64,000 bases of DNA, taken from Candidatus Falkowbacteria bacterium. Lineage in GTDB: Bacteria > Patescibacteriota > Patescibacteriia > UBA11705. The stretch is from the NCBI GenBank assembly GCA_003518055.1, contig DOZJ01000002.1, positions 55,225 to 119,224 on the forward strand. Direction: 5' to 3'. Position numbers and translations under genes: made by a program. The notes under the pieces are model-generated. The model had not been told where the DNA came from and ran no database searches. It saw only the letters and a list, made by a program, of their open reading frames with translations. This document shows, one piece after another, positions 14,370 through 57,678 of this stretch. Every line of letters starts with the position of its first letter. Position 1 is the stretch's first letter.

Positions 14370-15017
14370 ATGTTTTTAGAAGATTTAAATGTAAATAAAA
14401 GTCGGCCACCACAGAGCGAACGCGATATGGCTAAAGAAAAGCTTGATCGGGTGGTGACTGAAAACATCAGGATGTTAAAGACCGAAGGCTATGAATCTAC
14501 GTCTGATGAATCAATGGGCGGGAACGCCAGAACATTTAACGTTGCTGGTTTAAATATCTTGATGACATGCAAAGGAATGAATGCCTATTGCGATGAGGAT
14601 GGTATCTTAAAACAGTTTACAAACTATGAGAATCAGGTAAGGAGTGGAAGTCGGAGGCATATAACCTTTCGTGTCGGCATCGATGTCAGTGAATATTTCC
14701 AACGCCACAAACCGACCGCTGGGTTAATTGTTGAAGTTTATGGCACTGAAAACGCCACTCCTGAAATCAAAAAAATATTCAGAGAGACTCAGCACCGCTT
14801 CAATGTTGAATCCGCCAAGAGCTTTCATGATTTAAAAATCGCCGTCGCGCTCATGGGCGAGCTGGAATCATCAACCGGTGAAACTATATCCACGGCAGAG
14901 CTGTTACAGCGTCTTAACGAAGTTCAAACTTCTCGCAGCAATGCCGCGCTGCTTCCTCGGGAGTTTGGCCTCAGGTACAAGGTGATTGAATTGTTGAGAA
15001 ATGAAATTGTCCATTGA
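14370..15017 (+). CDS. Hypothetical protein
   Basis: 215-aa ORF, no motifs recognised. Confidence 0.45.
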   Translation: MFLEDLNVNKSRPPQSERDMAKEKLDRVVTENIRMLKTEGYESTSDESMGGNARTFNVAGLNILMTCKGMNAYCDEDGILKQFTNYENQVRSGSRRHITFRVGIDVSEYFQRHKPTAGLIVEVYGTENATPEIKKIFRETQHRFNVESAKSFHDLKIAVALMGELESSTGETISTAELLQRLNEVQTSRSNAALLPREFGLRYKVIELLRNEIVH

Positions 15018-15099
15018 AATTGGTTGTTGATGATTTGTTTTATGGGTGAAATTCAATGTTTAGATTATCATCACATCAAATTTATGGGCTTGATTAAAT

Positions 15100-15730
15100 A
15101 GATAATCCCCACTTTAGTGGAAGGGTTTTATGAGATATCAGTTCTTTTCCAACACAACATATTTTGTTACCTACAAAACATGTAATAATGGATCGTATTA
15201 TTTTTCTGATGAGGAAAAAGATATTATCTTATCGAAATTGCTAGAAGCCCGGTCAAAATTCATACCCGGATTAAAAGCGTTTGCCATTCTTTCCAACCAT
15301 TATCATCTATTAATTGAAAATGTTGATAGTCGGGCCGCCCAAAAGTTTTTCCAACTATTAAATGGTGGTAGCTCGTTCATTATTAATAAGGATAAAAATA
15401 GTAAATTTAATTATTGGGGGATTCAGGACCGAATCAATTGGCCGGTTAAGACTGAGGGAAAGTTTTTTCAATTTTTAGCGTATGTGGTGGCCAATCCGTG
15501 GCGTCATGGTTTGGTGCGGGAAATAAGTGATTTAAAAGGTTATCGGTATTGTAATTATGACCAAGTTTGCGAAGACTATGGAGAGGCGTTTATACAAGAT
15601 TTAATTTTAAATCGTATTAAGAAAGATGATGAATGAGGTGTTTTCCCCACTAAGGTGGGGCATATTTAATTCATGTAATATAAAAAGAAATAAAATTCCT
15701 TATGTCCCACTTTAGTGGGAGGGTCTATAA
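15100..15730 (+). mobile_element. IS200/IS605-like or REP-RAYT element: Y1 transposase flanked by palindromic hairpins
   Basis: Near-identical hairpin copies 'cccactttagtgg(a/g)agggt' at 15106-15129 and 15704-15727, plus 'ccccactaaggtgggg' at 15645-15660, bracket the 168-aa HuH gene. Confidence 0.6.
15130..15636 (+). CDS. IS200/RAYT-like HuH tyrosine (Y1) transposase
   Basis: HuH motif 'NHYHLLIE'. 'NYWGIQDRI' and C-terminal 'NPWRHGLV' match the COG1943/RayT signature (NPvkaGLV). About 165 aa, typical size. Confidence 0.7.
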   Translation: MRYQFFSNTTYFVTYKTCNNGSYYFSDEEKDIILSKLLEARSKFIPGLKAFAILSNHYHLLIENVDSRAAQKFFQLLNGGSSFIINKDKNSKFNYWGIQDRINWPVKTEGKFFQFLAYVVANPWRHGLVREISDLKGYRYCNYDQVCEDYGEAFIQDLILNRIKKDDE

Positions 15731-15764
15731 AAAACGATAGAATTAATATTTTCTTTATAATAAT

Positions 15765-17525
15765 ATGAACGAAGATCAATTAAAAAAAATGCGTCACTCT
15801 CTCGCCCACGTAATGGCTCAAGCGGTTTTGAAGTTTTTTCCTGACGCCAAATTAGCGATCGGTCCTGACATTGATACCGGTTTTTATTATGATTTTGACT
15901 TGGGTGGCCAGTCATTCTCACCGGAAGATTTGAAAAAAATCGAGAAACAAATGAAAAAAATCATCGCCGGTAATCAGAAATTCGAAGCTTATTCCTTACC
16001 GCTGTCCGAAGCCAAAGAAAAAATGCAGGGCAACCCCTACAAGGTTGAGTTAATCGATGAACTTGGGGGTGCGGGGGAGACGGTTATTAATTTTTACAAA
16101 AATATCGACGGCAACGGCCAAACCATGTTTAATGATATGTGCCGCGGGCCTCATGTCGAGTCCACCAAAGCGGTCGGCGCCTTCAAAATTGACAAGGTCG
16201 CTGGCGCCTATTGGCGGGGAGATGAAAAAAAACCGATGCTTCAGCGGATTTACGCGTTGGCTTTTGGCACCCAAGCGGAATTGGAACATTTTCTAACCAT
16301 GAGGGCTGAGGCTGAACGCCGCGATCACCGAAAACTGGCCAAAGAGTTGGGCTTGATTGTCCATTCCGAATTGGTCGGACCGGGCCTGCCGCTTTACACG
16401 GGCAAAGGCGCGTTGCTTCGACGACTGATCGGCGATTATTCGCGTGAACTTCGAGACCGTATGGGTTATGTCGAAGTTCATACGCCGCAAATGAACAAGG
16501 CCGAACTCTTTAAACGCTCCGGCCATTATGACAAATACAAAGATGATATGTTCCGCGTGGTGTCCAATTATACCGATGAAGAATATTATCTTAAACCCAT
16601 GAATTGTCCTCAGCACACGCAGATTTTTGCCGCGGATATCCGCAGCTACAAAGACTTACCGGTTCGCATCGCTGATTTCGCCAATCTCTATCGAGATGAA
16701 AAACCCGGAGAGTTGAGCGGTCTGACTCGTCTACGGTGTTTTGCTCAGGACGACGGCCATTGTTTTTGCCGCGAGGATCAGATTGAGCAGGAATTCAGCC
16801 AGCTGCTCGAAGCGGAAAAGGAAACCCTCGCGACTTATGGGATGGACTATCATGTTCGGTTGTCATTCTCTGATAAAAATAATATGAAAGCCTATCTCGG
16901 TGACGAAGCGGTGTGGTCCAAGGCGGAGATCATGCTCGAAGCTTTGGTTAAAGAAAAAAATGTCCCTTACGTTATAGCCGAAGGCGAAGCCGCTTTTTAT
17001 GGCCCCAAAATGGACATCATTGCCAAGGATTCGCTCGGCCGCGAGTGGCAATTGTCGACGATTCAAATCGATTTTAATCTGCCTGAGCGGTTTGAACTGG
17101 AATACATCGGCCAAGACGGCAAAAAACACCGTCCGGTGATGATTCATAGTGCTCTAGTCGGTTCGCTGGAACGTTTTATGGCCGTCGTGATTGAGCATTA
17201 TGCCGGGGACTTTCCTTTGTGGCTCTCACCGGTTCAGGTCAAGCTGATTTCCGTCGGTGAAAAACATCACGACTATGTGGTTAATTTGGCTGCTAAATTA
17301 AAACAGGAAAAAATTCGAGTGGAGATTGATTTGAGCGATGAAACCGTTGGCAACAAAATTAGAAAATCAGAAAAAGAAAAGAATCCTTACATGTTGGTCA
17401 TTGGTGACAAAGAAATGGAATCGACCAAATACACCATTCGTCAGCGTAATGAATCTGACCAACGCGAACTCAGTCTGGACGAGTTGGTCACGGAAATTGT
17501 CCAGAAAGTGGCTGCCAAAAAATAG
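15765..17525 (+). CDS. thrS: Threonyl-tRNA synthetase (short form lacking N-terminal TGS domain)
   Basis: 586 aa. 'HSLAHVMAQAV' editing-domain start, class II core and anticodon-binding domain collinear with ThrRS. Confidence 0.9.
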   Translation: MNEDQLKKMRHSLAHVMAQAVLKFFPDAKLAIGPDIDTGFYYDFDLGGQSFSPEDLKKIEKQMKKIIAGNQKFEAYSLPLSEAKEKMQGNPYKVELIDELGGAGETVINFYKNIDGNGQTMFNDMCRGPHVESTKAVGAFKIDKVAGAYWRGDEKKPMLQRIYALAFGTQAELEHFLTMRAEAERRDHRKLAKELGLIVHSELVGPGLPLYTGKGALLRRLIGDYSRELRDRMGYVEVHTPQMNKAELFKRSGHYDKYKDDMFRVVSNYTDEEYYLKPMNCPQHTQIFAADIRSYKDLPVRIADFANLYRDEKPGELSGLTRLRCFAQDDGHCFCREDQIEQEFSQLLEAEKETLATYGMDYHVRLSFSDKNNMKAYLGDEAVWSKAEIMLEALVKEKNVPYVIAEGEAAFYGPKMDIIAKDSLGREWQLSTIQIDFNLPERFELEYIGQDGKKHRPVMIHSALVGSLERFMAVVIEHYAGDFPLWLSPVQVKLISVGEKHHDYVVNLAAKLKQEKIRVEIDLSDETVGNKIRKSEKEKNPYMLVIGDKEMESTKYTIRQRNESDQRELSLDELVTEIVQKVAAKK

Positions 17526-56456: not shown

Positions 56457-57416
56457 ATGAAAAAAATTATTTTAATTATAATTCTGATATTGCTGCCAAC
56501 CACCGTACTGGCCGCGTTTGATATTGATTTTACCTCTCAAGCTCCGGTCGGGGATTGGCGTCAACCGTGGCAGGATGCATGTGAAGAAACTTCGGTGGTG
56601 ATGGTGGATGCTTTTTATGGCGGTTATGACCTGACGGTTGATAAATCTGTGACCAAAATCAAAACTGTTTTTGCCATCAAAGAAAAATTTTTTGGTCCGA
56701 GTTATGATGAAACTGCCGGCCTTATCGTTGATATGATCAACCGGCATTTTCCTTGGGAATCGCGAGTGGTCGAAAACCCAACGCTTGATCAGATAAAGTT
56801 TGAGCTGGATGCCAGCCGTCCGGTTTTGGTGCCGGTTCATGGCGGTACGCTTAATAATCCCAATTATCATTCCGGCTCAATCGATTATCACATGATTGTG
56901 CTGATCGGTTATGACGACGCTCGCGGTGAATTTATGGCGCATGATCCGGGCACGCAATTCGGTTCTCGTCATCATTACAGTTACGATACCATTATGGCCG
57001 CCATGCATGATTTTTTGCCTAACGACCAGACATTAAGAGGCGCCAAAGTGGCGATTTTCACACAGCCTGACATTTCTCTCTCCGGTCAAACCGATGGCGA
57101 CAGGGACGGATTATTGAAAATTGACGAAATTAGATCAGGCGCCAACCTGTCACAAGCTGATACTGATCGAGATGGTTTTCTTGACGGCGAAGAAGTTCAG
57201 CAGGGGTATTCTCCGTTGGTGGCCGAGTTCAAACTGGGGGATAACCGATTGGTGCGCGACGCGGCGACTCAGCGGATCTATTTTATTTCCGGCAGCCAGA
57301 AAAGACATATTCAAACCCTCCCGACGGTATTCAGTTATGGCCGCCTTTATGGCGCGGTTGTTAATGTCAGCGCTAAATTCTTGAACAGTTTTGTTGACGG
57401 GCAGCCGATCCATTAG
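56457..57416 (+). CDS. Secreted papain-fold (C39-like) cysteine peptidase domain protein with Ca-binding D-x-D-x-D-G repeats
   Basis: Signal peptide. 'QPWQDACEETS' Cys context and a downstream His are C39_2-like. 'TDGDRDGLL' and 'TDRDGFLDGEE' repeats. Confidence 0.45.
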   Translation: MKKIILIIILILLPTTVLAAFDIDFTSQAPVGDWRQPWQDACEETSVVMVDAFYGGYDLTVDKSVTKIKTVFAIKEKFFGPSYDETAGLIVDMINRHFPWESRVVENPTLDQIKFELDASRPVLVPVHGGTLNNPNYHSGSIDYHMIVLIGYDDARGEFMAHDPGTQFGSRHHYSYDTIMAAMHDFLPNDQTLRGAKVAIFTQPDISLSGQTDGDRDGLLKIDEIRSGANLSQADTDRDGFLDGEEVQQGYSPLVAEFKLGDNRLVRDAATQRIYFISGSQKRHIQTLPTVFSYGRLYGAVVNVSAKFLNSFVDGQPIH

Positions 57417-57420
57417 CTTT

Positions 57421-57616
57421 CCCGCACTGAAGTACAGGAAAAATGATTCTGGCCGGTTTGGATCTTTTCCCGCACTAAAGTACGGGAAAAGAAGGATGGG
57501 AAAAATGGTTTAGGCCGGTTTGAATCCTTTCCCCGCACTAAAGTACGGGAAAAGAATGGTGGGAAAAATGATTTTAGCCGGTTTAGATATTTCCCCGCAC
57601 TTCAGTGCGGGAAGCG
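57421..57616. repeat. Tandem array (about 3.5 units of about 62 bp), each unit starting with a GC-stem hairpin ccc(c)gcac-t(a/t)(a/c)ag-t(a/g)cggg
   Basis: Units at 57421, 57468, 57531 and 57594. First and last hairpins carry reverse-complementary loops (ctgaag vs cttcag). Spacer parts are also repeated, so this is not a CRISPR. Confidence 0.75.
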
Positions 57617-57618
57617 GG

Positions 57619-57668
57619 CTCAATCTCTCAATCTTTCAATCTCTTAATCTCTTAATCTCTTAATCTCT
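57619..57668. repeat. Tandem 8-mer (c/t)aatctct x about 6, ending ...tctctcccaccccATG
   Basis: Same unit as the one upstream of dnaE. Confidence 0.8.
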
Positions 57669-57678
57669 CTCCCACCCC

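What the first reader, a model, noticed from the sequence alone, without database searches (positions are those of the whole stretch)
15100..15730. Minimal IS200/RAYT-type element with three flanking hairpins next to thrS
A 168-aa HuH Y1 transposase carries the HuH motif NHYHLLIE and the C-terminal NPWRHGLV signature of COG1943/RayT. It is bracketed by near-identical hairpin-containing 24-mers at 15106-15129 and 15704-15727, plus a third hairpin right after the stop. This is the classic architecture of a REP-associated tyrosine transposase or IS200 with subterminal hairpins, and it is notable in a reduced genome.
Basis: partly seen in the sequence, partly recalled or inferred. Interest (0 to 1): 0.55.

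Follow-up and report, generated by a model that had tools for sequence, protein, structure and literature searches.

The report
RAYT-type transposase gene with mini-REP hairpins
This is a small gene for a single-strand-DNA-cutting enzyme of the known REP-associated tyrosine transposase (RAYT) kind, bracketed by three copies of the short DNA hairpin it probably acts on; it is a genuine but fairly ordinary member of a little-described branch of that family, common in Patescibacteria (CPR).

Summary
ORF 15130-15636 encodes a 168-aa HUH/Y1 protein. Three copies of the hairpin CCCAC-TTTA-GTGGG lie at 15102-15121 (+, degraded), 15646-15665 (inverted) and 15700-15720 (+). They are the only copies in 64 kb.

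The protein is a divergent class-2 TnpA_Y1 (RAYT/TnpA_REP), not an IS200 transposase. It has the Y---NP motif, its best sequence and fold match is E. coli TnpA_REP (4ER8), and H57, H59, Y118 and N122 are invariant in its family. It scores below the curated HMM cut-offs.

All nine loci fetched through eight family relatives (mostly Patescibacteria, at most 43% identical) show the same architecture. So does one locus with an IS200-subclass-1.2-like Y1 gene. Each unit is a T-rich tetranucleotide, 2 nt, a 5-bp covarying stem and a TTTA or TTCA loop. One copy sits just upstream of the ATG and an inverted copy at or after the stop.

This geometry matches the characterised Marinomonas REPtron Mb, but GTAG is replaced. 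A sister Falkowbacteria genome (ThrS 85% identical) has only 26 nt between the same two genes, so the cassette was gained or lost as a unit.

The genome-wide copy number could not be measured. Verdict: new member of a known kind, moderate interest.

The parts
15102..15121 (+). REP1: ATAA-tc-CCCAC-TTTA-GTGGA, a mini-REP in the same orientation as the gene. It ends 8 nt before the ATG. The copy is degraded, with only 4 of 5 stem pairs.
   Evidence: The homologous '+' copy lies 7-17 nt upstream of the ATG in L024, L027, L029 and L070.
15130..15636 (+). Gene for a 168-aa class-2 TnpA_Y1 (RAYT-like) HUH single-strand DNA endonuclease. Key residues are HuH = H57/H59, catalytic Y118 and N122 (motif Y---NP).
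15646..15665 (-). REP2: an inverted copy that reads ATAT-gc-CCCAC-CTTA-GTGGG on the - strand. It starts 9 nt after the stop codon. On the + strand the CCCCAC-TAAG-GTGGGG hairpin (15645-15660) scores as a weak terminator-like site.
   Evidence: (I1: 28-nt inverted repeat with REP1, 79%)
15700..15720 (+). REP3: TTAT-gt-CCCAC-TTTA-GTGGG(A), the best-preserved copy, with a 6-bp perfect stem.
15645..15720 (.). REPIN-like doublet. REP2 and REP3 lie in inverted orientation 44 nt apart and fold as one long hairpin with a 19-bp stem.
   Evidence: dG -16.4 kcal/mol, z -3.8, 0 of 200 shuffles as stable, I2
15018..15764 (.). The whole 747-nt interval between the 215-aa hypothetical gene and thrS, which holds the cassette. 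It is replaced by a 26-nt spacer in a sister Falkowbacteria genome. GC is 33%, against 45% for the window.

Best explanation
The locus is a REPtron: a gene for a RAYT-type (class-2 TnpA_Y1) HUH tyrosine endonuclease together with its cognate mini-REP hairpins.

Shown:
- The protein has the TnpA_REP fold and the invariant catalytic set H57-u-H59 and Y118-x3-N122-P.
- It is bracketed by one REP in gene orientation directly upstream and an inverted REP directly downstream, followed by a third copy that forms a REPIN-like doublet.
- The same arrangement recurs around every relative examined. The stems covary while the C-TTTA-G loop is conserved.
- The cassette is present here and absent at the same site in a sister genome.

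Inferred, by analogy with E. coli TnpA_REP and especially Marinomonas TnpA_Mb, whose REP is also a tetranucleotide, 2 nt, a 5-bp stem and a TTTA loop:
- The protein binds the hairpin when the DNA is single-stranded, for example on the lagging-strand template.
- It reads the loop (T, T and A positions) and the perfect stem.
- It uses the AT-rich tetranucleotide 2 nt 5' of the stem (ATAA, TTAT or ATAT here; ATTY, TTCC or TCCC in relatives) as a guide to choose a nearby cleavage site.
- It cuts via a 5'-phosphotyrosine link at Y118, with the metal held by H57, H59 and N122, and rejoins the strands. This copies or moves REPs, mostly into its own neighbourhood.
- Because the upstream REP overlaps the ribosome-binding region (GTGGAAGGG, 8 nt from the ATG), it may also damp expression of the gene. 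This last point is speculative.
For: Protein:
- NCBIfam REP_Tyr_transpos is the only real hit (E 1.5e-13), and all 36 aligned family members hit it.
- The family profile's best PDB hit is 4ER8 TnpA_REP (E 3.6e-15), with HuH and Y---NP aligned.
- The AF2 model has pLDDT 93.8, and its best fold match is 4ER8 (TM 0.64), ahead of the IS608 and ISDra2 TnpA structures.
- H57, H59, Y118 and N122 are invariant in 36 sequences.
- Y---NP is the class-2 signature (PMC6006769).

Hairpins:
- The three copies are significant against shuffles.
- The inverted arrangement and the REPIN-like fold are seen directly.
- Nine further loci (L017, L020, L024, L026, L027, L029, L043, L068, L070) carry 37 copies of the same unit around the Y1 gene.
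- These hairpins are enriched 30- to 200-fold over shuffles in five of the six homologue loci tested; L026 had no perfect-stem copy.
- An alignment of the upstream regions, cut so that each hairpin lies near the centre and aligned by MAFFT, gives a 5-bp consensus stem. Four of its 5 pairs show compensatory double changes, and CTT-AG (loop plus closing pair) is invariant, the third loop base being T in six of seven.
- Copies occur in both orientations relative to the gene, which argues for a DNA-level element rather than an RNA-level one.
- Marinomonas REPMb has the same geometry, and its loop positions T12, T13 and A15 are essential (PMC8266576).

Unit behaviour:
- The sister genome GCA_002773615.1 has dtd, a 213-aa hypothetical gene and thrS with a 26-nt spacer and ThrS 85% identical. 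Its 12.6 kb holds no RAYT and no such hairpin.
Against: - The protein scores below the curated cut-offs: NCBIfam 50.9 bits against 80, and Pfam Y1_Tnp 20.1 against 23.
- No GT[AG]G tetranucleotide, the hallmark of canonical REPs, is present at any copy.
- No dispersed copies of this REP exist in the other ~63 kb of the window, whereas classical REP families number tens to hundreds per genome.
- REP1 has lost a stem pair and REP2 has a CTTA loop. By analogy with TnpA_Mb, T12 is required, so these may be poor substrates.
- No biochemical activity has been shown for any member of this clade.
- The direction of the indel (gain here or loss in the sister genome) is unresolved.
Confidence: 0.75

Rival explanations
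1. The hairpin-gene-hairpin unit is an autonomous, minimal (about 0.62-0.75 kb) IS200-like insertion sequence. REP1 and REP3, which lie in direct orientation, would act as left-end and right-end subterminal hairpins, and the element would have inserted upstream of thrS.
For: REP1 and REP3 are direct repeats with an 18/19 identical core, 598 nt apart, flanking the gene (D3). An empty site exists in a sister genome. The cassette GC is 33% against 45% for the window. The length is close to that of IS200. In the Marinomonas REPtrons, REPs clustered around the gene are read as a sign of recent arrival (PMC8266576).
Against: - The Y motif is Y---NP (class 2), not the IS200 Y---Q, and there is no NCBIfam IS200 hit.
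- There is only one copy in 64 kb, and the protein is a singleton cluster among 5.8 billion proteins, with the nearest relative 43% identical. That rules out recent proliferation or transfer.
- Relatives sit in syntenic positions in diverged genomes (L027/L029, 66% identical against 69-81% for most neighbours; L026/L068), which indicates vertical inheritance.
- Low GC is a trait of the whole family, so it is not evidence of recent transfer.
Confidence: 0.12
2. The cassette is a decaying relic. A RAYT REPtron was acquired or inherited, its REPs never spread or have been purged from this small genome, and the enzyme no longer acts.
For: REP1 has a broken stem, REP2 has a variant loop, and the three 5' tetranucleotides differ (ATAA, TTAT, ATAT), whereas relatives keep theirs uniform. 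There are no dispersed copies in 64 kb. The sister genome does without the cassette.
Against: The ORF is intact and full length. It keeps all 4 invariant and all 6 near-invariant family residues and gives a confident fold. Sequences from eight contigs in several samples are identical across the cassette, with no frameshift variants.
Confidence: 0.08
3. The hairpins are ordinary RNA-level signals: a 5'-UTR stem that hides the ribosome-binding site and a terminator after the gene. On this reading they have nothing to do with the enzyme's substrate.
For: REP2 scores as a weak terminator-like site. The 3' arm of REP1 overlaps the Shine-Dalgarno-like GGAAGGG 8 nt from the ATG. IS200 is known to use an RBS-sequestering hairpin (established knowledge).
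Against: The same unit occurs in both orientations and in up to nine copies around relatives, including inside the 3' end of the coding sequence and across the stop codon. The loop sequence and a 5' tetranucleotide are conserved while the stems covary, as expected for recognition by a protein. There is no T-tract after REP3 or REP1. No Rfam family matches.
Confidence: 0.05

Closest known systems
Marinomonas sp. MWYL1 REPtron Mb (group 3 RAYT, TnpA_Y1 subclass 2.5; Corneloup et al. 2021, PMC8266576)
   Same: The REP is a perfect 5-bp stem with a 4-nt TTTA loop, preceded by a tetranucleotide 2 nt from the stem. The loop sequence matters and the stem sequence does not, provided it pairs. The REPs are concentrated next to the gene. 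The window protein's Y motif, YVVANP, fits the subclass 2.5 pattern YI[VI]ANP.
   Different: The tetranucleotide here is ATAA, TTAT or ATAT (ATTY, TTCC or TCCC in relatives), never GTAG. The HuH motif is NHYH rather than DH[LF]H. The family consensus Y motif is YI[LV]GNP. The host is Patescibacteria rather than Gammaproteobacteria. Only three copies are seen.
E. coli TnpA_REP / RAYT (PDB 4ER8; group 2, subclass 2.2)
   Same: It is the best sequence-profile hit and the best fold hit. The HuH histidines, the catalytic Tyr and the NP-x-x-HG-x-V helix all align. The gene is flanked by inverted REPs in a REPtron, and REP doublets (BIME/REPIN) are present.
   Different: E. coli REPs are long bulged hairpins with an obligatory 5' GTAG and hundreds of dispersed copies. 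Here the hairpins are 14-nt minimal stems without GTAG and, so far, are seen only at the gene. The structural alignment shows 14% identity.
IS200/IS605 TnpA (IS608, ISDra2; TnpA_Y1 subclass 1.1)
   Same: Both have the HUH/Y1 fold, a small gene bounded by subterminal hairpins, and the guide-tetranucleotide logic for choosing the cleavage site.
   Different: IS200/IS605 has a Y---Q motif, a shorter core-only protein, multiple near-identical copies per genome and often a tnpB partner. None of these is seen here.
TnpA_Y1 subclass 2.6 and class 3, which have 'atypical secondary structures' (Quentin et al. 2018, PMC6006769)
   Same: These are class-2-like or related Y1 proteins of about 178 aa. Their flanking hairpins lack GT[AG]G, and their copy number is low.
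   Different: The motifs differ (2.6: NH[LIV]H with YIH[QN]NP; class 3: Y---EQ), and so do the hosts (Bacteroidetes; Planctomycetes and Acidobacteria). Membership could not be tested without the published subclass HMMs.

Membership tests
RAYT / TnpA_REP (class 2 of the TnpA_Y1 family) | HuH motif plus a single catalytic Tyr in a Y---NP motif | tested here: met
   NHYH at residues 56-59 and Y118-VVA-N122-P123. H57, H59, Y118 and N122 are invariant in 36 family members and align to the HMH and YIYINP motifs of 4ER8. The class definition comes from PMC6006769.
RAYT / TnpA_REP (class 2 of the TnpA_Y1 family) | Score above the curated HMM cut-off (NCBIfam NF047646 REP_Tyr_transpos; Pfam PF01797 Y1_Tnp) | tested here: not met
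   NF047646 scores 50.9 bits against a cut-off of 80 (E 1.5e-13). PF01797 scores 20.1 bits against a cut-off of 23. These are the best hits, but both are sub-threshold, so the protein is a divergent member. All 36 relatives also hit NF047646 (best E 1.5e-32).
RAYT / TnpA_REP (class 2 of the TnpA_Y1 family) | TnpA_REP-like three-dimensional fold | tested here: met
   The AF2 model has pLDDT 93.8 and pTM 0.89. The top Foldseek hit in the PDB is 4ER8_A (E 5.4e-08, TM 0.64/0.65, 151 aligned columns), ahead of the ISDra2 and IS608 TnpA structures (TM about 0.47).
RAYT / TnpA_REP (class 2 of the TnpA_Y1 family) | Gene flanked by its cognate REP hairpins in inverted orientation (REPtron) | tested here: met
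   REP1 (+) and REP2 (-) form a 28-nt inverted repeat, 79% complementary, around the gene (I1). REP2 and REP3 form a REPIN-like doublet. The same layout is found in nine other loci.
RAYT / TnpA_REP (class 2 of the TnpA_Y1 family) | REP carries a conserved 5' GT[AG]G tetranucleotide at or near the foot of the hairpin (canonical REPs of subclasses 2.2, 2.4, 2.5, 2.7 and 2.8) | tested here: not met
   The tetranucleotides 2 nt 5' of the stem are ATAA, TTAT and ATAT here, and ATTY, TTCC, TCCC, TTCG or TTGC in relatives. None of 40 copies carries GTAG or GTGG at that position. Subclass 2.6 and class 3 also lack it.
RAYT / TnpA_REP (class 2 of the TnpA_Y1 family) | Cognate REPs dispersed in many copies in intergenic regions across the genome | tested here: inconclusive
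   There is no further copy in the remaining ~63 kb of the window. A related but distinct cluster of four hairpins lies at 57416-57613. Pattern scans of genome contigs and metagenome contigs did not return this locus itself, so they say nothing about this genome.
RAYT / TnpA_REP (class 2 of the TnpA_Y1 family) | Low copy number and vertical, housekeeping-like inheritance (Bertels et al. 2017) | tested here: inconclusive
   There is one copy in 64 kb and the protein is a singleton cluster. Relatives are syntenic orthologues in L027/L029 and in L026/L068. However, this copy is absent from the sister genome, and the polarity of that difference is unknown.
RAYT / TnpA_REP (class 2 of the TnpA_Y1 family) | Sequence-specific cleavage and strand transfer on single-stranded REP DNA | not testable with these tools
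   This needs purified protein and oligonucleotide substrates, as in the CST assay of PMC8266576.
IS200/IS605 insertion sequences (TnpA_Y1 subclass 1.1) | Transposase with a Y---Q motif that passes the IS200 family HMM | tested here: not met
   The motif here is Y118---N122. There is no NF033573 transpos_IS200 hit at E <= 1 for the window protein. Only 15 of 36 relatives hit it, and weakly.
IS200/IS605 insertion sequences (TnpA_Y1 subclass 1.1) | Left-end and right-end subterminal hairpins in the same orientation | tested here: met
   REP1 and REP3 are direct copies on the + strand (D3). This alone is not diagnostic, because an inverted copy is also present.
IS200/IS605 insertion sequences (TnpA_Y1 subclass 1.1) | Several near-identical copies per genome, or identical copies in unrelated genomes | tested here: not met
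   There is a single copy in the window. No other protein above 43% identity was found among 5.8 billion clustered and 1.84 billion representative proteins. The whole genome was not available.
IS200/IS605 insertion sequences (TnpA_Y1 subclass 1.1) | Presence/absence polymorphism with an intact empty site | tested here: met
   The sister genome has a 26-nt spacer in place of the 747-nt interval. Within the same population, all contigs carrying the neighbouring genes also carry the cassette. The ends and the target site could not be defined.

The most novel reading that the evidence does not exclude
Patescibacteria carry a distinct RAYT lineage whose mini-REPs use a non-GTAG, genome-specific T-rich guide tetranucleotide. 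Its whole REPtron (REP-gene-REP, about 0.7 kb) would still move or be exchanged as a unit. It would then be a living intermediate between IS200-type insertion sequences and fully domesticated RAYTs, and the thrS-proximal cassette here would be a recent arrival.
Probability: 0.2. Interest if true: 0.55.

Novelty: new member of a known kind. Interest (0 to 1): 0.35.

Why it matters
RAYTs and REPs have been studied almost entirely in Proteobacteria, where REPs are abundant and carry GTAG. This locus and its relatives show the same system in Patescibacteria (CPR).

- The REP is reduced to a 14-nt hairpin.
- The TTTA loop is the one shown experimentally to be essential in Marinomonas.
- The guide tetranucleotide differs from genome to genome.
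- The REPs are confined largely to the gene's immediate vicinity.

This gives a natural series of stem and guide variants for testing the guide-sequence model of cleavage-site choice. It also provides a case (present here, absent in a sister genome) for asking whether REPtrons are gained as units. For annotation, the practical point is that such proteins score below the curated thresholds and are labelled 'hypothetical'. That is how this one is named in NCBI.

Tried and rejected
1. Counting REP copies genome-wide. Exact-pattern scans for CCCACTTTAGTGGRAGGG in genome contigs (13 hits) and metagenome contigs (28 hits) did not return the window's own locus. The positive control therefore failed, and the scans say nothing about this genome. 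By my own arithmetic, assuming uniform base composition, about 35 chance hits are expected in 596 Gb on both strands. Most hits are chance or one orthologous Burkholderia site.

2. Single-sequence searches. phmmer against the PDB gave no Y1 hit, and the word-indexed protein search found only the protein itself. Profile and exhaustive searches were needed.

3. Low GC as proof of recent horizontal transfer. I rejected this because every family member examined has 3-11 points lower GC than its host locus, including vertically inherited syntenic orthologues.

4. Empty-site variants within the same population. None were found. All contigs with identical neighbouring proteins carry the cassette. Several assemblies break inside or next to it, but that is uninterpretable.

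5. Relatives in viral contigs: none.

6. Rfam: nothing meaningful for the cassette or for the 57.4-kb array.

7. Promoter scan: no sigma-70-like site upstream of the gene on the + strand.

8. Defining the element's ends or target site by aligning against the sister genome's 26-nt spacer. The intergenic DNA is too diverged.
Full report
**1. What is in the sequence**

The window is 45.5% GC. It belongs to a groundwater Candidatus Falkowbacteria (Patescibacteria/CPR) population. The protein is NCBI 'TPA: hypothetical protein DF272_01235', and identical contigs occur in several ENA, Logan and JGI samples.

A 747-nt interval (15018-15764, 33% GC) lies between a 215-aa hypothetical gene (14370-15017, downstream of dtd) and thrS (15765-17525). 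It holds one ORF, 15130-15636, of 168 aa.

There are three copies of a short palindromic unit:
- REP1, 15102-15121 (+): ATAA-tc-CCCAC-TTTA-GTGGA.
- REP2, 15646-15665 (-): ATAT-gc-CCCAC-CTTA-GTGGG.
- REP3, 15700-15720 (+): TTAT-gt-CCCAC-TTTA-GTGGG.

The 14-nt core with up to 2 mismatches occurs only here in 64 kb: 4 hits against 0.23 expected, and 0 of 100 shuffles reached 4. A profile of the three copies finds nothing else below E = 0.2.

REP1 and REP2, with their flanks, form a 28-nt inverted repeat around the gene. REP2 and REP3 form an inverted doublet that folds as a 19-bp hairpin (dG -16.4 kcal/mol, z -3.8). REP1 alone keeps only 4 stem pairs and is not more stable than shuffled sequence.

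**2. The protein**

Alone, the protein is sub-threshold for the curated models. Pfam Y1_Tnp gives 20.1 bits against a cut-off of 23, and NCBIfam REP_Tyr_transpos gives 50.9 bits against 80 (E 1.5e-13). It has no IS200 hit.

The word-indexed search found only the protein itself. An exhaustive phmmer search of 1.84 billion representatives found 463 relatives at E <= 1e-3 and 53 at E <= 1e-10. None exceeds 41% identity.

In an alignment of 36 relatives, H57, H59, Y118 and N122 are invariant. F12, T14, G79, W96, H126 and L135 are nearly so, and the window protein keeps all of them.

The family profile hits E. coli TnpA_REP (4ER8) best, at E 3.6e-15. HuH aligns to HMH, and Y118-x3-N-P aligns to Y-IYI-N-P. 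The IS200/IS608/ISDra2 transposases follow at E 2e-7 or weaker. All 36 members hit REP_Tyr_transpos.

An AlphaFold model (pLDDT 93.8) matches 4ER8 best, with TM 0.64 against about 0.47 for the IS transposases.

In the published TnpA_Y1 classification, Y---NP defines class 2 (the TnpA_REP-like proteins) and Y---Q defines the IS200 subclass (PMC6006769). The protein is therefore a divergent class-2 TnpA_Y1. Its motif combination (NHYH, and YVVANP against a family consensus of YI[LV]GNP) does not match any one listed subclass exactly. The Y motif fits subclass 2.5.

**3. The hairpins are a property of the family**

A profile search of the 5.8-billion-protein collection gave 1302 members at E <= 1e-10. 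Where named, most are from Patescibacteria (Uhrbacteria, Falkowbacteria, 'Patescibacteria group'). Typically there is one member per cluster, found on one or a few contigs.

I fetched the loci of eight relatives that are 26-43% identical to the window protein: L017, L020, L024, L026, L027, L029, L068 and L070. Every one carries the same kind of unit beside the gene. It consists of a T-rich tetranucleotide, 2 nt, a 5-bp G+C-rich stem closed by C·G, a TTTA (or TTCA) loop, and the complementary stem.

- Stems differ between genomes: CCCAC, GGAGC, CCGGC, CCAGC, CTGAC, CAGAC, CGTAC, CGGAC, GGGAC.
- The tetranucleotide is uniform within a genome: ATTC/ATTT in L024, L027 and L029; TTCC in L026, L068 and L070; TCCC and TTCG in L020.
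- It is never GTAG or GTGG.

An alignment of the regions just upstream of seven genes, cut so that each hairpin lies near the centre and aligned by MAFFT, gives a 5-bp consensus stem. Four of its 5 pairs show compensatory double changes, and CTT-AG (loop plus closing pair) is invariant, the third loop base being T in six of seven.

The hairpins are 30- to 200-fold enriched over shuffles in five of the six homologue loci tested (L026 had no perfect-stem copy), and they cluster at the gene. In the 62%-GC Uhrbacteria locus L070, nine of ten copies lie within about 120 nt of the gene.

The layout is recurrent:
- One copy in gene orientation lies 7-17 nt upstream of the ATG in the window, L024, L027, L029 and L070.
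- Inverted copies lie further upstream and at or after the stop codon.
- In L017 and L070 the stop codon lies within the hairpin loop (TAA of the TAAA loop); in L029 the stop TGA lies in the 5' arm of an imperfect copy.

Occurrence in both orientations argues for a DNA element rather than an RNA motif. No Rfam family matches.

**4. Closest characterised system**

Corneloup et al. 2021 (PMC8266576) studied the group-3 REPtron Mb of Marinomonas sp. MWYL1. Its REP is GTAG, 2 nt, a perfect 5-bp stem and the loop T12-T13-T14-A15.

- Loop positions T12, T13 and A15 are essential.
- A stem mismatch abolishes cleavage, but the stem sequence is largely free.
- The tetranucleotide acts as a guide that selects the cleavage dinucleotide, as in IS608.
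- The REPs are concentrated near the gene, which the authors read as recent arrival.

The units found here have the same geometry and the same loop, and they differ in the tetranucleotide. Mechanistically, I therefore infer the following. The protein binds the hairpin in single-stranded DNA. It recognises the loop and the perfect stem. It uses the AT-rich tetranucleotide to pick a nearby cleavage site. Cutting is by Y118, with the metal held by H57, H59 and N122, and is followed by strand transfer. None of these steps is shown for this protein.

**5. Is it mobile?**

The only other homologue of the 215-aa neighbour is 49% identical. It comes from Ca. Falkowbacteria CG10_big_fil_rev_8_21_14. 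In that genome (GCA_002773615.1 and three metagenome contigs), the order dnaE ... dtd, 213-aa hypothetical gene, thrS, S8 peptidase is conserved and ThrS is 85% identical. The 213-aa hypothetical gene and thrS are only 26 nt apart. Those 12.6-kb loci contain no Y1 gene and no such hairpin.

So the whole cassette was gained here or lost there, and I could not polarise the event. The cassette's low GC is not decisive. Every family member examined is 3-11 points below its host locus, including L027/L029, which are syntenic orthologues (66% identical against 69-81% for most neighbours) and hence vertically inherited. L026 and L068 are likewise syntenic, with the order rluD-like, Y1 gene, cca.

Within the window's own population, every contig that carries the identical neighbours also carries the cassette. 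There is one Y1 ORF in the window and no close relative anywhere. This looks like RAYT-style low-copy persistence, not IS-style proliferation. Unit-wise gain or loss does occur.

**6. What could not be done**

The two large pattern scans did not return the window's own locus, so they cannot count copies in this genome. They did reveal two things.

- L043, a 55%-GC contig, carries a 147-aa Y1 gene with a Y---Q--HH motif (IS200 subclass 1.2-like; NCBIfam IS200 65 bits). It is preceded by exactly CCCACTTTAGTGGGAGGG and followed by CCTCCCAC-TGAA-GTGGGAGG.
- A low-GC organism in the Ga03155xx metagenomes carries the same core as a truly dispersed family, CCCT-CCCAC-TAAA-GTGGG-GTAG, with up to five copies in 11 kb.

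**7. Verdict**

The RAYT reading is supported and the IS200 reading is not. The element is a new, divergent member of a known kind: a class-2 TnpA_Y1 REPtron with short TTTA-loop REPs. It belongs to a Patescibacteria-rich lineage that, in the paper library searched here, is not described as such.

Interest is moderate. The family-level regularities are useful to specialists: covarying stems, a fixed loop, a non-GTAG guide, REPs confined to the gene, and an empty site in a sister genome. Nothing here departs from the established logic of the system.

Noticed in passing
window 57416-57613 (and 57619-57669): An intergenic cluster of four REP-like hairpins sits in 2.8 tandem units of 63 nt. On the - strand they read TTTT-cc-CGTAC-TTTA-GTGCG (twice), CGCAC-TGAA-GTGCG and TGTAC-TTCA-GTGCG. 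The geometry is the same as the RAYT-flanking units, but the stem differs. The core CGTAC-TTTA-GTGCG, including its T·G mispair, is identical to the REP that flanks the RAYT homologue in L026. The cluster is followed by (CTCAATCT)x6.4. There is no second Y1 ORF in the window, and no Rfam match.
   Followed up: partly
L043 5680-6262 (metagenome contig Ga0207639_10003032, 55% GC): A 147-aa Y1 gene of another subclass (Y---Q--HH motif; passes the NCBIfam IS200 model) is flanked by the very same hairpin: TTGC-ct-CCCAC-TTTA-GTGGG-AGGG about 40 nt upstream and CCTCCCAC-TGAA-GTGGGAGG downstream. This hairpin type is therefore not restricted to the class-2 clade. The gene lies directly downstream of an rluD-like pseudouridine synthase gene, as do the RAYT homologues in L026 and L068.
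   Followed up: partly
L038, L042, L048, L054, L056, L061, L062 (Ga03155xx metagenome contigs, about 35% GC): These contigs hold a dispersed REP family with the same core as the window's hairpin, CCCT-CCCAC-TAAA-GTGGG-GTAG-AAAA. There are up to 5 copies in 11 kb. Here a GTAG lies 3' of the hairpin on the TAAA strand. REP3 of the window matches this family over 21 nt (AGACCCTCCCACTAAAGTGGG). No Y1 gene was found on these contigs.
   Followed up: partly
L017, L020, L024, L026, L027, L029, L043, L070 and window 15130-15636: Every Y1 gene of this kind has 3-11 percentage points lower GC than its host locus (for example 24% against 35% in L027 and L029, and 52% against 62% in L070). This holds even for vertically inherited syntenic orthologues. 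It is a persistent compositional trait that I did not explain.
   Followed up: no
L027 6711-7328 and L029 6561-7292: A second, longer class-2 Y1 gene (205 and 243 aa; passes the NCBIfam REP_Tyr_transpos cut-off) lies 3 kb upstream of the first in both genomes. It is 85% identical between them, which is more conserved than the first copy (66%).
   Followed up: no
L017 8642-8660, L029 10525-10545, L070 10559-10575: The inverted REP overlaps the end of the coding sequence. In L017 and L070 the stop codon is the TAA of the TAAA loop. In L029 the stop TGA lies in the 5' arm of an imperfect copy. In L070 a further copy lies inside the 3' end of the gene.
   Followed up: no
L009 3090-3160 (Ca. Peribacteria MAG) and L012 4900-4940 (Rikenellaceae MAG): Two adjacent TTTA-loop hairpins occur in unrelated MAG contigs: CCCCC(C)-TTTA/TTATTA-GGGGG(G) followed by TCCCAC-TTTA-GTGGGA-GGGGG. 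No Y1 gene was detected in the 8-kb loci.
   Followed up: no
window 15229-15671 (contig ends of L002, L032, L033, L035): Four independent metagenome assemblies of this population break inside or just after the cassette, at window positions 15245, 15229, 15447 and 15671. All bases that are present are identical to the window. This could reflect low coverage, the low GC, or strain heterogeneity.
   Followed up: no
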